64,000 bases of DNA from Rhina ancylostomus (lineage: Eukaryota), in contig JARFYF010000064.1 in the NCBI GenBank assembly GCA_030265395.1, forward strand, positions 11,316,722 through 11,380,721, given 5' to 3'. Below, piece after piece: positions 1 to 47,700 of the stretch; within the stretch, counting starts at the first letter, position 1, and every line of letters starts with the position of its first letter. A program made the position numbers.

Positions 1-2702
1 ATAAGTATTCAAAGGACATGTCTTTCTCATTGCATCAATCATGCAACAAGAGTCAGAATTAAGGCCTTCAATGGGCACCATTCTGAGACACTGTAGAACA
101 AAAGCATGACTGTAAATCATTCCACAAGAAATAAGCAACAGACAAATCCACTTTTAACTGCTTTAAACTGCCTTGAAATAAAAAAAACAACAAACTATCC
201 CTGTGAACAGAAGTTCTACAATCCTTGTTATCAAAGCAACCAGACATGCCAGGGACTTGCAGTCTGGGGTTAATTTAGACTACTTTCTACATGTCCTGGT
301 AATGTGTCTGTGCAGGATCATGAGATGTGATACGATTCTTTTGGCTATCAACCAATCCATGATGTAGCTTTCTGAAGAGACTGGTGTTTTCAGTTTGCCT
401 ACAAGAACTGAGTTGAGCCTCAAATAGCTCATTTTCTGAATAATGGGAGCACTGTTCTAATAGATAGAACACTCAGTCACAATAGATACAAACATTTAGA
501 AGTTCTGGTAACACTTTTACCTATATCACTTTAGTCGAAACCTTGCAATAAATATGCTTTGTGAAAACTGAGTAAAAATATTACCAGTAACAATAAATGA
601 GAAGGTTTCCAATAATAATTAGTTAAATAAAAAGGGAAAAAATTAAATATTGTTGCAAGCTTGGTATTGCTATCTTGTTAACAACCCTAAGAACTCTTTG
701 CAGAATTTGTAATTGTAGTATAGAGACCAGTTCTCATACAGCCTCAAAGTTGCTTCAGTTCTAAGCACCCAGTTATAATCTCAATGCAGCATTTGGTTTA
801 ATTCCTCATCAGCTAATGATGAAGTGTAAAGATTATGTGAAGCTGTGGATTAGTAATAAACAGAACCTTTCTCAGCCAGATTGGAAAGAGACCTGAGCCT
901 TTTCTCTGCCACAGATGAATATGGCTGCCTGGATTTAGGTTAGATATGAATTTACGTTTTATTCAGCTCCCATAAGGGTGATTAAACAAATTAAAGTCAA
1001 TAGACATACAGCTACCAGGCAGGTTGCCTGCACCCAGGTTATTTTATACTCTGGTTTAACAAGCTGCAGATGTGAAATTAGCAAAAATGGGTAGGGTAGG
1101 AAGATAATAGTATAGGTTGTTAGACCNNNNNNNNNNCAATACCCAACATCAGGGCTGTATTTTTCTACTTTGGATTGTAAATGGAATGTTGATAAGTTAT
1201 AACTCTGAAAAAATAGTCATTACTTTCCATGGTGTACTGTGGAAAACAGAATACCTTATCCTCAAGTATCCCAATCTAATGATAAAATATGCACGAACAT
1301 GTATTCCAATGTAAATATTTGACCAGAGATCTGCCCCAGGAAAGCAATGAGTCATCAGAGGGTCATCTTCCAGAAACCACAACAACTACGGATGTTTTCT
1401 ACTGGATTACACAGGGAATAAATATATTCAATTTAATTGTTTTAGAGAAATTGAAAATCAGCAGGCGCACAAAGAGGTTTTACTTGCAATCTTGATGAAA
1501 TGTGCAGCAGATTCTGTTTAATGTTTCGGTATATGGGCAACAATGTTAAGTGGCTGAGTTGTGTGGAGATCCCTATTGTGGACATGATAAACAGTGGGAG
1601 GCTAAAGTCCAAAGCTAACCAGTGTTAAGGGCTTCAGCCTGATTTTTTAAAAATAATTTGAGAGTTAGCCAGCAGTTTCCGTAGCTTACAATTGAAAATA
1701 GTCAGTGTGAAAACCAGTAAATTTCCTCACTAAAACTGGCATCTCAATACCAAAAATGAGCTGGACTGAATTATTGAGAAATTTAACCAGGATAACTTTA
1801 AATCAAGGATGGAATGAAATACAATTAATTAGATCCTTGAACTGTTAAAAATGAAACATGAAAAGTATAACCAGATTTTAGAACTTTAACTCACACCCCC
1901 ACCCACCTTGGTAGACTGAGGAAATCTCCTATAAAACCTGAATATGAGTGCTGTTTTATACCCAGAATGATTATGAAACCAGACCTTTAAAGACAGAGTA
2001 CTTACTGTGAGTGCCGAATCTCCACGTTGACCCTAGAAAATGGAAGAGTAATCAGATTCGCAAAGTCAATACTTCATTTATATTGTACCTCTACAGCACT
2101 GAAGAAGTTACAAAATGTTACGAAGTAATACAGAAATGGGCCATTCAGCTCAATTGATTGACACTGGTAGTTTTGCTCCATAGATACTAGAGTGAAGTTT
2201 CATCGTCTTCTAATCTCAAACTTTAACCTTTTTTCAACACTATCCACTATATACCACTTAACGTCATGAGTCACTATATAAAAACACTTGTATGATCAGT
2301 AGTGAAAGTACAGAAACAGGCCCTTCAGCCCACTGAGTCTCTGCCAACCATCACCACACACTTACACCAGTTCTGTCAGTGCCTCTCGCAGAGGTCTGCG
2401 CCAATACCATTATTTTTAATGATAGGATCCATCAGAGTGATGATAGACTCAGATGGTCCTTGCCTGGCTACACTGGGTCTGGGTAGATGATACCCATATT
2501 TGGGTAGATGGAAAATGGGTTTAATGTGTCAAATTACAAAAAAAATTAAATTTAACAGATGCAAATCAGAATAAATGTTGAATCATTACTAAATGTAAAA
2601 TGTATCAATTATCAAAAATTGTTAAGTTTTCAAATTAGATATGCAGGAACTTCACCTACCCCATCTGGAAATATTGACATTGAGCCGAACATGAGACCAC
2701 AA

Positions 2703-2744
<42 letters not shown>

Positions 2745-44700: not shown

Positions 44701-47700
44701 TTTTTCTCCTGGTGGCCCTAGAGAGAAACAAGGAGTATTAGTAGAATTGTTAACAAATGGAGGCCATGAATTTATCTGTGTATAGCTACAGCACAACTTT
44801 CTTAAGGTGACTATAAGAATGGAAAGTGGAGTCAAAATTTAAATAATGGAGTTTTGATTAGGAATCCAACAGCTTTAAAGCTCTTCTTGTTCATCACTTA
44901 ACATGAAGGAATACACTTTAACACTGATGTATCTCAAAGCTTACAAGTCCAATAGTTTGTTATAACAAGTTTGTATTTTACATATTACTGTCTTTCAGGT
45001 TTCCAAATACAATGAATCATTGTGCTTGATGACCTTGGGCTTTCCTGTATTATTGATTAGCTGGCCCAGTATCAAGATGCTGATTTAATCTCAGACAGAT
45101 AATATTTCATGACTTTTGCTCTAATAAATCATCGAAGCAAAAGAAGGAGTCAACATTTCCAAACTTTCTTCACTTTTTAAAACCCACATCCATCTATATG
45201 TTGCATATAAAATGTTATCTCCCCAAGCACAGAAGAACAGTTACAAGGGGAATATCTTGCAGCCTTTCACATGAAAACATTTAAAACATGAAACAGAGTC
45301 CTCTAAACATTTTAATGTACTTACTTTAGTACAGACTATCCTCTAAAACAAATTGCCTGCACTATAATAAAAATCTCTGATTATACTGAATGCTATTTCA
45401 GCTCCTGAATCTCTCAGCCACATATCACCAATACATGGATTGCGTAATGGTATACCATTCAGAGTAAAACTTCAGCATTGCTAAATTTAAGGTGATAAAT
45501 AGAGCTCTGTCTTGCAAAAGTGGACTGTTTATTTATTCTACAGGTTTCTATTATTCCTACCAAATAAATTACTGATCAAAGCATGAAGAAGTAAGGTTAA
45601 TAAAAGCTTCCTTTAAACTAACTGTGAGCAATTTTAATGTGGTCGTTTCTGGTCATGGCTTAAGCATAAATTGCATGTTCAGTGAACTGTATCTTGGCTA
45701 CATAATGAACAGTTCATTCATGGTTTGCAGGGTGCATAACAGTTCACTCACTCCGGACTTACGCCTGGAATGTAACAATTGATATACTGATCTACCCTAT
45801 TTCTAAAGAAGGAAAGGTGATTTCAGAAGGCAAAATTGGAGGGTAATTTTCACAAGATGTTTCAAGTTATTCCATCATCATTAAATGGAATCTGAGAAAC
45901 TGAAAATACCATGATCTTGAGAAACAGAAATTCAATTTCACCTTGAAATTTTGGGCTAAACTACTCTGAATTGTACATAAATGGTCCGTCCACTGGATCT
46001 AAATATCCACAATACTAAATAGTGAATTAATAACTTGTAAGATATCCCACACATTTCAGTTAGGTATTTAGGTCTAAGCTGATAGATCCAACAGAATTTT
46101 TTTCCAACAGGACAGATTAATTTTCCACTCAATAGTTAGGAAATCCTGCTTTGGTTTCAGGATGGTTGAACTATCACTAATAGGTCATTTTGGTGGGTTC
46201 CCTCTGTGCATGTGATCCTCCCCATCACATGTTCCTCTACGTCTGCTCAGCTTAATGCACAGCGGCACAATGAAAGTCTAGCCCATTGTGATGAAAATAA
46301 AGAGTTCTACGTGCTCTGAAAAGGAAAAATATTGCCAAACACTTTCATCAACAGCTAAATTCTCTATTGGGTGGTGGTGAGTGGTTGTGGTGGGATGGGG
46401 TCGGAGCAGACTAAGCATGTGGCATTGGATTGGAAATTTTTTCCATTGGCTTCCAGTTTTACTCCTGGTGTCCTATTAAGGGGGGGCTGGGGGGTGGGTG
46501 GCGAGATTATCCAACCTATCAGATCAGTAACACAGGTCACAATCAGAAATTTAGAAGTTTACTTAGGAACACGAGAAGCGAAGTCAGAAATGGACACACA
46601 CACATAAAAAAACAAACACCAAAAACCTACAAAAAATTCACAGCTTGTCCCCAACCACAAGTATTCAAAACCTTATACATGAAACAATCAAACTCATCCA
46701 GAAATATCTGATCTCAAACACATGTTCAAACCATTACGCATAAACCATCCAAGCCTACTACACACAAAATATCAAAGGCCTCTAGTCAATAATATTAAAC
46801 ATCCATATACAAAATATCAGAGGCTCATATGCACTCCAGTCCTTTCCTTTGTGCACTGAGTACTTTCATCTTTCATTCTACACTGCGTAAACCATGTGAA
46901 AACAAGGGAGTTTCAGATACAACTCTTTAAACATTTTACACCTGTAGTTTGAAGAAAAGCCTGAATCTCATGAAAGTTCTGATGAAGTGTAATCAACCTA
47001 GAATTTAAACTCTGTTTCTCTCTCCACAGATACTGCCTGACTCGCTGAATATCTCCAGCATTTTCTGTTTCGGGTTTTCACCAGCTGTAGTTTGCTTCTG
47101 GGAAGCCTGAATCTTGATAGAACAAATCAAAACTGTTCCCTAGATTAAACCTACCAATAAGAAGCAACATATTCAAGTCCTACAGGCATAGAATTTGAGG
47201 AACTATTCTTAAACTGGTCTTAATCAGTTTTGTGTACAACCATCTCGATAAGACAGGGACAATTAATAGCTTAAAGCAGCCCAAATTAAATGTGTGTGTG
47301 TGTGTGTGTGTGTGCCAGTTAGTCTATGGGCATGTGTTGAATATTCAAACCATGTATTGGTAGATGGGAAACACCTGCCCAGATGCCATACAGTGCTTTG
47401 TTCAATTAAGTTTAGACCTCTGCATTACTGGTTTAGTGATGTGACAGTTGCACCACTTCATCTACCAAGTTATTTTCCTCCTGAAAGTATTTCTGTGCTG
47501 GGATGTGGTGCCATCTCATATGGCTCACCACTGTTTGCAAGAAGCTGAATGGACAGAGTCGACATGCTTTGCATCAGAGTTGGACTGAACAATAACAAAT
47601 GTGTACTTTCTCCCCAGCAGGAAAAATGGATGGATCAATGGATGGGAACCAACACAGCACTGAACAGATAATGAACCTGAGATCCACCTGGTCTGTGTNN

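What the first reader, a model, noticed from the sequence alone, without database searches (positions are those of the whole stretch)
2006..44717. MACIT collagen with a mosaic exon set: ancestral architecture or a fourth paralog
Seen: a 13-exon COL1 domain. Recalled: the 45-nt basic exon, GRDG(F/Y)P and GLPGPKGEK are COL23/COL25-type, and human COL13A1 lacks the 45-nt exon. Six consecutive exons (36, 27, 51, 36, 27, 27 nt) match COL13A1 in size and sequence. Inference: either a chondrichthyan ortholog keeps the full ancestral exon set that was differentially lost in mammals, or this is a fourth 2R-derived MACIT ohnolog lost in tetrapods.
[Added by the scan's program, not by the reader: the finding's places include an assembly gap (unread letters, written N; its length is only estimated) at 19153 to 19252, 30201 to 30300, 35879 to 35978. 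Whether the letters on both sides are continuous or in frame is not known: test that first.]
Basis: partly seen in the sequence, partly recalled or inferred. Interest (0 to 1): 0.7.

Follow-up and report, generated by a model that had tools for sequence, protein, structure and literature searches.

The report
Transmembrane collagen gene: COL1 mini-exon chain
This stretch is the part of a membrane-anchored collagen gene that encodes its first triple-helical domain in 13 very small exons; it is most likely the collagen XIII gene of a non-mammalian vertebrate, an ordinary gene, though which paralog it is could not be settled here.

Summary
On the minus strand, 13 exons (45, 8, 27, 36, 27, 51, 36, 27, 27, 27, 27, 27, 27 nt; 392 nt) lie between 44717 and 2006. 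They have strong splice sites and a continuous Gly-X-Y frame, far beyond chance.

- The 45-nt basic exon is phase 1-1 (split Gly codons).
- An 8-nt micro-exon (41275-41282) returns the frame to phase 0.
- GLPGPKGEK is one of four mutually similar consecutive 27-nt exons, so it is a weak paralog marker.

All three assembly gaps lie in introns, 1.6-7.1 kb from the nearest exon. They cannot change the frame but could hide 9n-nt exons.

The interpretation (ancestral exon set versus fourth paralog) could not be tested. The only sequence link is that the 51-nt interrupted exon recurs in three unnamed read-through gene models. Tu et al. 2015 report three MACITs in jawed vertebrates, including elephant shark.

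My lean, partly from recall, is a COL13A1 ortholog keeping ancestral MACIT features. A fourth ohnolog is unlikely (about 0.05).

The parts
44673..44717 (-). Exon, 45 nt, phase 1 to 1. With the G supplied by the unseen upstream exon it reads GPPGEKGRHGRRGVP plus the first base of the next Gly codon. This is the basic cluster R-H-G-R-R at the start of COL1.
   Evidence: Sequence; phase. Acceptor score 12.0 (99.7th percentile), donor score 9.6 (99.4th percentile).
41275..41282 (-). Micro-exon, 8 nt, phase 1 to 0. With the incoming G it reads G-P-A and returns the frame to phase 0.
   Evidence: Sequence: a long pyrimidine tract, cacag|GGCCTGCT|gtaagt. Acceptor score 14.5, donor score 6.1. It is the only such site on either strand.
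40898..40924 (-). Exon, 27 nt, phase 0, GAPGRDGFP. An internal AG gives a 17-nt version (40898-40914) that could accept a phase-1 donor directly.
   Evidence: Acceptor at the 98.9th percentile, donor at the 96.9th.
40191..40226 (-). Exon, 36 nt, phase 0, GNKGSMGLPGRR.
   Evidence: Weak acceptor (68th percentile), donor at the 99.6th percentile.
35879..35978 (.). Assembly gap inside the intron between the 36-nt and 27-nt exons. Its two flanks repeat each other.
34264..34290 (-). Exon, 27 nt, phase 0, GLKGEPGEE.
30201..30300 (.). Assembly gap inside the 11.2-kb intron.
23036..23086 (-). Exon, 51 nt, phase 0, GAPGDPGISIIGPRGPP. It carries the one break in the Gly-X-Y repeat (four residues between two glycines).
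   Evidence: Acceptor at the 100th percentile. The same exon occurs in 3 unnamed gene models.
19153..19252 (.). Assembly gap inside the 10.9-kb intron.
12150..12185 (-). Exon, 36 nt, phase 0, GQPGARGFPGYP.
9655..9681 (-). Exon, 27 nt, phase 0, GPIGLDGKS.
   Evidence: It has the weakest pair of splice sites (87th and 91st percentiles).
8112..8138 (-). Exon, 27 nt, phase 0, GKAGPKGDM. First of four mutually similar exons.
7326..7352 (-). Exon, 27 nt, phase 0, GLPGPKGEK. Second of the exon family.
6331..6357 (-). Exon, 27 nt, phase 0, GDSGHKGEK. Third of the exon family.
3480..3506 (-). Exon, 27 nt, phase 0, GLHGPKGDK. Fourth of the exon family.
2006..2032 (-). Exon, 27 nt, phase 0, GQRGDSALT. 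The Gly-X-Y repeat ends here (COL1 to NC2 border). It contains R-G-D-S.

Best explanation
Window 2006-44717, minus strand, is the part of a membrane-associated collagen (MACIT) gene that encodes the membrane-proximal triple-helical domain COL1. The domain is about 128 residues in 13 mini-exons. I think the gene is most likely the COL13A1 ortholog of a non-mammalian jawed vertebrate.

Shown:
- The chain enters from an unseen upstream exon in the middle of a Gly codon.
- The 45-nt exon is symmetric (phase 1-1), so it can be included or skipped without a frame shift.
- The 8-nt micro-exon then resets the frame to phase 0.
- Every later exon is a whole number of codons beginning with Gly. Any of them can be used as a cassette without breaking the frame or the Gly register.
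- One exon carries a conserved break in the helix, and the last exon ends the helix.

Inferred:
- This layout supports the combinatorial exon skipping described for human COL13A1.
- The basic cluster at the start of COL1 binds heparin-like polyanions, as the basic COL1 cluster of collagen XXV does.
- The features that resemble collagens XXIII and XXV are ancestral MACIT features rather than signs of a separate paralog.
For: Exon chain, phases and splice sites.

Chance controls: 9 perfect exons on the minus strand against 0 on the plus strand and a mean of 0.04 in 50 shuffles; the micro-exon is unique on either strand.

Conservation: the 51-nt interrupted exon recurs with the same 17-residue length, and with Q before it and V-S after it (read-through of cag and gt splice signals), in all 3 proteins that reached E <= 0.001 among 1.84 billion. 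By my count by eye, 15 of 17 residues are identical in P0001 and in P0003.

Literature:
- MACITs are defined by interrupted collagenous ectodomains. XIII, XXIII and XXV are the three jawed-vertebrate paralogs and all three are present in elephant shark. XXIII and XXV are sisters with XIII outside them, so a trait shared by XIII and the XXIII/XXV pair is most simply ancestral (PMC4678570: sections 5, 7 and 8 and passages).
- Human COL13A1 has six alternatively spliced exons affecting COL1 and NC2 (title of ref. 52). Its muscle transcript lacks exons 3, 5, 6 and 30 (PMC4678414, passage).
- Collagen XXV binds heparin and amyloid beta, through a positively charged cluster in COL1 (passage in PMC5583603; title of Osada 2005 in the reference lists).
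- Collagen XIII binds heparin (PMC4678414, passage).

Recall only, from no call: as I remember human alpha1(XIII), its COL1 holds the window's SIIGPRGPP break, followed by the same order of the next three exons. As I remember XXIII and XXV, they lack that break in COL1. I also recall that an 8-bp exon was described in the type XIII collagen gene.
Against: - No named collagen XIII, XXIII or XXV sequence was compared with the window, so the paralog assignment rests on recall.
- The defining MACIT parts are outside the window: the transmembrane exon, the furin site and the C-terminal Cys motif. A motif scan of the upstream 19 kb found no NC1-end exon (3 motif matches, none with exon features).
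- Two searches with the single-exon frame of the 45-nt exon found nothing: 28 candidates among longer proteins and 2 among proteins of similar length, none at E <= 10. So no annotated protein in that collection carries this exon at high identity. This is weak evidence, because a control with a LINE ORF from the window found no relative closer than 44% identity (65 of 144 candidates at E <= 0.001). That suggests this genome's close relatives are poorly represented in the collection.
- As I recall, this COL1 is longer than in mammalian collagen XIII, and its distal part (four similar 27-nt exons) does not look like the mammalian one.
- Transcription and actual exon use are unknown.
Confidence: 0.65

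Rival explanations
1. A fourth MACIT ohnolog from the two rounds of vertebrate genome duplication, kept in this lineage and lost in tetrapods, combining XIII-like and XXIII/XXV-like exons.
For: Not excluded by any search, because no named comparison and no synteny test could be made. As I recall, this COL1 exon set is larger than that of any mammalian MACIT. No annotated protein carrying the 45-nt exon was found.
Against: Tu et al. 2015 searched cartilaginous fish, found three MACITs in elephant shark, and infer early loss of the fourth. A text search for a later report found 2 papers, neither describing a fourth copy. The 51-nt exon is closely conserved in three other gene models, as expected for a widely kept gene. 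One supposed mosaic marker, GLPGPKGEK, is explained by an internal exon family.
Confidence: 0.05
2. The COL23A1 or COL25A1 ortholog of this species, not COL13A1.
For: A basic COL1 cluster is documented for XXV.
Against: As I recall (no call), the interrupted 51-nt exon and the three exons after it are collagen XIII sequence and are absent from COL1 of XXIII and XXV. GLPGPKGEK is one of four similar exons in this gene.
Confidence: 0.12
3. A lineage-specific extra copy of COL13A1, or a partly decayed copy in which the 45-nt exon (and perhaps others) is no longer used.
For: The distal four 27-nt exons show that exon-level duplication has happened in this gene. Two exons have weak splice sites. 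The 45-nt exon was not found in any annotated protein.
Against: All 13 exons keep open Gly-X-Y frames and AG/GT borders with compatible phases. The 45-nt exon has splice sites in the top 1%. Nothing shows a second copy.
Confidence: 0.08

Closest known systems
COL13A1 (collagen XIII alpha 1 chain), a MACIT
   Same: A long gene made of very small 9n-nt collagen exons. COL1 follows NC1. There is an interrupted triple helix. COL1 cassette exons are alternatively spliced in human. The protein binds heparin. As I recall, it has the same interrupted motif and the same order of the following exons.
   Different: As I recall, the mammalian COL1 is shorter, does not start with a strongly basic stretch, and has a different distal part. 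None of this was tested against a named sequence here.
COL25A1 (collagen XXV, CLAC-P), a MACIT
   Same: It has a positively charged cluster within COL1 that binds amyloid beta and heparin. The window's first COL1 exon carries R-H-G-R-R.
   Different: As I recall, its COL1 is short and lacks the interrupted exon. Tu et al. 2015 place XXV as sister to XXIII, apart from XIII.
COL23A1 (collagen XXIII), a MACIT
   Different: As I recall, it lacks the four exons that lie between those motifs in the window. Not tested.
C. elegans col-99, the single invertebrate MACIT
   Same: A type II transmembrane collagen with interrupted helices and extensive skipping of small exons.
   Different: It has seven collagenous domains. 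No exon-level correspondence was examined.

Membership tests
MACIT collagens (criteria of Tu et al. 2015) | Predicted type II transmembrane topology (N-terminal cytoplasmic and transmembrane segment) | not testable with these tools
   The exon is not in the window. The upstream 19 kb shows no such exon. Three further N runs lie there.
MACIT collagens (criteria of Tu et al. 2015) | [quoted passage not shown] | tested here: met
   There are 13 exons in one Gly-X-Y frame. One break has four residues between two glycines (exon 23036-23086). The helix ends in exon 2006-2032. Only the first collagenous domain is in the window.
MACIT collagens (criteria of Tu et al. 2015) | Conserved C-terminal motif with two spaced cysteines | not testable with these tools
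   The 3' part of the gene lies outside the window.
MACIT collagens | Furin-type cleavage site in NC1 just before COL1 | not testable with these tools
   The NC1 exon that must end in phase 1 before 44717 was not found in the window.
COL13A1 orthologs | Groups with named collagen XIII sequences in a sequence search or tree | not tested
   The exons are 3-17 aa and the tools need 20-40 aa without stops. Single-exon frames gave only unnamed hits or none.
COL13A1 orthologs | Synteny with the COL13A1 paralogon | not testable with these tools
   There is no other gene in the window. No vertebrate genome collection was on hand.
COL13A1 orthologs | The interrupted 51-nt COL1 exon is conserved in other genomes | tested here: met
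   All 3 hits at E <= 0.001 carry it with the same borders. The hits are unnamed, so this shows conservation, not which paralog.
Pfam Collagen (PF01391) | Score at or above the gathering cut-off | tested here: inconclusive
   Exon by exon, 1 of 11 single-exon frames matched, below the cut-off (11.9 bits against 27.2, E = 0.19). The exons are much shorter than the 60-position model.

The most novel reading that the evidence does not exclude
The locus is a fourth MACIT ohnolog from the two rounds of vertebrate genome duplication, retained in this (possibly cartilaginous-fish) lineage and lost in tetrapods. A milder version: it is COL13A1 preserving the full ancestral MACIT COL1 exon set, from which XIII, XXIII and XXV of bony vertebrates each lost different exons.
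Probability: 0.05. Interest if true: 0.6.

Novelty: new member of a known kind. Interest (0 to 1): 0.2.

Why it matters
As it stands this is an ordinary piece of a known gene family. Its modest value is at the exon level. The phase 1-1 basic exon followed by an 8-nt phase-resetting micro-exon, and then a run of phase-0 cassettes, gives a concrete and checkable layout for the NC1/COL1 junction of MACIT genes. It also shows why automatic gene models may miss or misjoin these exons. If the same junction is found in XIII, XXIII and XXV of several vertebrates, it would date the basic heparin-binding start of COL1 to the ancestral vertebrate MACIT, and would show its loss or shortening in mammalian collagen XIII. 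A true fourth paralog would revise the published three-gene model, but nothing here points to that.

Tried and rejected
1. Single-exon protein search. 

2. The stop-free 32-aa genomic frame of the 51-nt exon against 1.84 billion representatives gave 3 hits. All are read-through gene models without names. P0002 is Pro- and GC-rich, of unknown origin, and may be mammalian or human. I set it aside and did not use any of the three as a query.

3. The 94-aa frame of the 45-nt exon gave nothing against longer proteins (28 candidates, none at E <= 10) or proteins of similar length (2 candidates, none).

4. The ESM Atlas with the 32-aa frame returned only generic collagen clusters at scores 0.90-0.92, with low recognition.

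5. Pfam exon by exon: 1 of 11 frames matched, below the cut-off.

6. PDB: 0 hits for one frame and 1 chance hit (E = 1.6, a sirtuin) for the other.

7. A text search for six exon motifs found 1 paper, an unrelated buffalo collagen survey.

8. Text searches for the gene structure or a micro-exon of MACIT genes found no paper describing exon sizes or phases. The original gene-structure papers are not in the library.

9. Rfam over the whole window gave 0 matches.

10. A search for a longer bridging exon between the 45-nt and 27-nt exons gave only non-collagen candidates with weaker sites, apart from the 8-nt exon.

11. Recent tandem duplication of the distal exons was rejected, because the intron flanks are not alike.

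12. Taxon: the LINE ORF search shows a CR1-like element with at most 45% identity to named bird sequences and 44% to the best unnamed hit.

Left out or unchecked:
- The search, fold or tree with the joined exon model.
- The collections metagenome contigs and viral contigs, which were closed.
- Genome contigs, which holds only bacteria and archaea and was not used.
- The supplementary alignments of Tu et al. 2015, which were closed and may show the COL1 of elephant-shark collagen XIII.
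Full report
**What the window is.** The window is 64 kb, 40% G+C, with a CpG observed/expected ratio of 0.23. That is a vertebrate-like composition. It has eight N runs, three of them inside the finding. I do not take it for human. Its upstream intron carries a CR1-like LINE with long open frames (RVT_1, E = 3e-8). The closest relatives of that LINE in the protein collection are only 36-45% identical where named (birds), and 44% at best overall.

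**The observation.** A six-frame scan for three or more Gly-X-Y triplets gave 30 runs. Eleven of them are minus-strand runs bounded by AG and GT. Reading the sequence added the 51-nt exon's full extent and the last exon.

The first exon's collagen frame starts one base before the end of its AG acceptor. So it is a 45-nt exon in phase 1 at both ends. It cannot join the next, phase-0, 27-nt exon directly.

A scan for bridging exons found one convincing candidate, an 8-nt micro-exon at 41275-41282. It has a long pyrimidine tract and a gtaagt donor. With the incoming G it reads G-P-A and resets the frame.

In order, and kept apart, the exons read:
- GPPGEKGRHGRRGVP
- GPA
- GAPGRDGFP
- GNKGSMGLPGRR
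- GLKGEPGEE
- GAPGDPGISIIGPRGPP
- GQPGARGFPGYP
- GPIGLDGKS
- GKAGPKGDM
- GLPGPKGEK
- GDSGHKGEK
- GLHGPKGDK
- GQRGDSALT

.

**Chance.**
- Perfect AG|(Gly-X-Y)n|GT exons: 9 on the minus strand, 0 on the plus strand, mean 0.04 in 50 shuffles.
- The micro-exon is the only AG|8 nt|GT with strong sites on either strand.
- With a rough weight matrix from my own knowledge, 11 of 13 acceptors are at or above the 97th percentile of 4052 AG sites, and all 13 donors are above the 90th percentile of 3616 GT sites.

**The gaps.** Each of the three gaps lies in an intron, 1588 to 7114 nt from the nearest exon. No collagen frame is cut at an edge. The exons on both sides are phase 0, so the reading frame does not depend on the gaps.

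Continuity cannot be shown, and an exon of 9n nt could be hidden in any of them. At 35879-35978 the 69 nt before the gap are 97% identical to the 69 nt after it, with a third copy 80% identical about 500 nt away. The core of this repeat occurs 7 times in the window against 0 expected. That gap therefore lies in an interspersed repeat and may be an unmerged overlap. I did not fill any gap.

**What I could and could not compare.** The exons are 3-17 aa and the database tools need 20-40 aa without stops. I therefore sent stop-free genomic frames that each hold one exon.

- The 32-aa frame of the 51-nt exon, against 1.84 billion representatives, gave 3 hits at E <= 0.001 (4.9e-5, 3.6e-4, 9.2e-4). 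All three are read-through gene models. They carry the same 17-residue exon with Q before it and V-S after it, that is, the same splice borders. By my count by eye, 15 of 17 residues are identical in P0001 and in P0003. One of them, P0002, may be mammalian or human, so I set it aside and used none of the three further.
- The 94-aa frame of the 45-nt exon found nothing among longer proteins (28 candidates, none at E <= 10) or proteins of similar length (2 candidates, none).
- As a control, a LINE ORF from the window found 65 of 144 candidates at E <= 0.001, but none above 44% identity. Close relatives of this genome seem poorly represented, so the negative result is weak.
- The Atlas, Pfam (1 of 11 frames, below the cut-off), the PDB and a motif text search added nothing.
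- There is no flanking gene in the window for synteny.

**New points that bear on the 'mosaic' reading.**

First, the four consecutive exons at 8112, 7326, 6331 and 3480 are 18-22 of 27 bases identical to each other, against 8-16 of 27 to the other four 27-nt exons. Their intron flanks are not alike. This is an old internal exon family with the pattern G-x-x-G-x-K-G-(D/E)-(K/M). GLPGPKGEK is one of its members, so its likeness to another collagen says little about paralogy.

Second, human COL13A1 COL1 exons are cassette exons. 'Six alternatively spliced exons affecting COL1 and NC2' is the title of Juvonen et al. 1992, seen only in a reference list. The muscle transcript lacks exons 3, 5, 6 and 30 (PMC4678414, passage). 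So 'human COL13A1 lacks this exon' depends on the isoform recalled.

Third, the 45-nt exon is symmetric in phase. It can be skipped, and its counterpart in other species might simply be shorter.

**Literature.** From Tu et al. 2015 (PMC4678570) I read the abstract and outline, sections 5, 6, 7 and 8 and passages.
- MACITs are defined by type II topology, interrupted collagenous ectodomains and a C-terminal Cys motif.
- All three are present in elephant shark.
- A fourth copy is inferred lost early.
- XXIII and XXV are sisters.

A search for later reports of a fourth copy found 2 papers, neither relevant beyond Tu et al..

Collagen XXV binds heparin and amyloid beta (PMC5583603, passage) through a positively charged cluster in COL1 (Osada 2005, title only). 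Furin cleavage lies just N-terminal to COL1 (PMC7848082, passage). The supplements of these papers were closed; the alignments of Tu et al. may show the elephant-shark COL1.

**Explanation.** The stretch encodes COL1 of a MACIT collagen. The mechanism shown by the sequence has four parts: a split-codon entry, an optional basic exon, an obligatory 8-nt phase reset, and then phase-0 cassettes that allow combinatorial splicing without loss of frame or Gly register.

It is inferred that the basic start of COL1 binds polyanions, and that the gene is COL13A1. The assignment rests on recall. As I remember human alpha1(XIII), it has the window's interrupted motif and the same order of the three exons after it, while XXIII and XXV do not have these in COL1. 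I also recall an 8-bp exon in the type XIII gene, but I saw no paper on it. On Tu's tree, a basic first exon shared by XIII of this species and by XXIII/XXV would be ancestral.

I put the alternatives at:
- COL13A1 ortholog: 0.65
- XXIII or XXV ortholog: 0.12
- An extra or decaying copy: 0.08
- A fourth ohnolog: 0.05

**Verdict.** This is an ordinary gene of a known family, of low interest unless a tree and synteny place it outside the three known clades.

Noticed in passing
window 35810-35878 and 35979-36047 (flanks of gap 35879-35978); also 36504-36583: The 69 nt on either side of the assembly gap are 97% identical, and a third copy 80% identical lies about 500 nt away. The gap sits in an interspersed repeat and may be an unmerged contig overlap. 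The repeat's 19-nt core occurs 7 times in the window within 3 mismatches, against 0 expected.
   Followed up: partly
window 8112-8138, 7326-7352, 6331-6357, 3480-3506 (minus strand): Four consecutive 27-nt exons are 18-22 of 27 bases identical to one another, against 8-16 of 27 to the other four 27-nt exons. Their intron flanks are not alike. This is an old tandem exon duplication within COL1.
   Followed up: yes
window 2006-2032 (minus strand): The last COL1 exon reads GQRGDSALT and so carries R-G-D-S, the classical integrin-recognition tetrapeptide, right at the end of the triple helix. Whether it is functional is unknown.
   Followed up: no
window 40898-40924 (minus strand), internal AG at 40915-40916: An in-frame internal acceptor would let a phase-1 donor join a 17-nt version of this exon directly, which is an alternative to the 8-nt micro-exon route. 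Its acceptor score is 5.0, against 14.5 for the micro-exon.
   Followed up: partly
window about 55000-58440 (minus strand): There is a CR1-like LINE in the upstream intron. It has a reverse-transcriptase frame (RVT_1, E = 3e-8), a weak endonuclease match, and a C-terminal frame whose best relatives are 44% identical (unnamed) or 36-45% identical (bird CR1-type proteins).
   Followed up: partly
window 40191-40226 and 9655-9681 (minus strand): These two exons have the weakest splice sites of the chain (acceptors at the 68th and 87th percentiles). They may be cassette exons.
   Followed up: no
window 2703-2754: A (TG)26 microsatellite lies in the intron before the last COL1 exon.
   Followed up: no
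window 44718-64000: No exon that could supply the phase-1 end of NC1 was found in the 19 kb upstream of the 45-nt exon. Three further N runs (47699-48013, 49061-49160, 51098-51103) lie there.
   Followed up: partly
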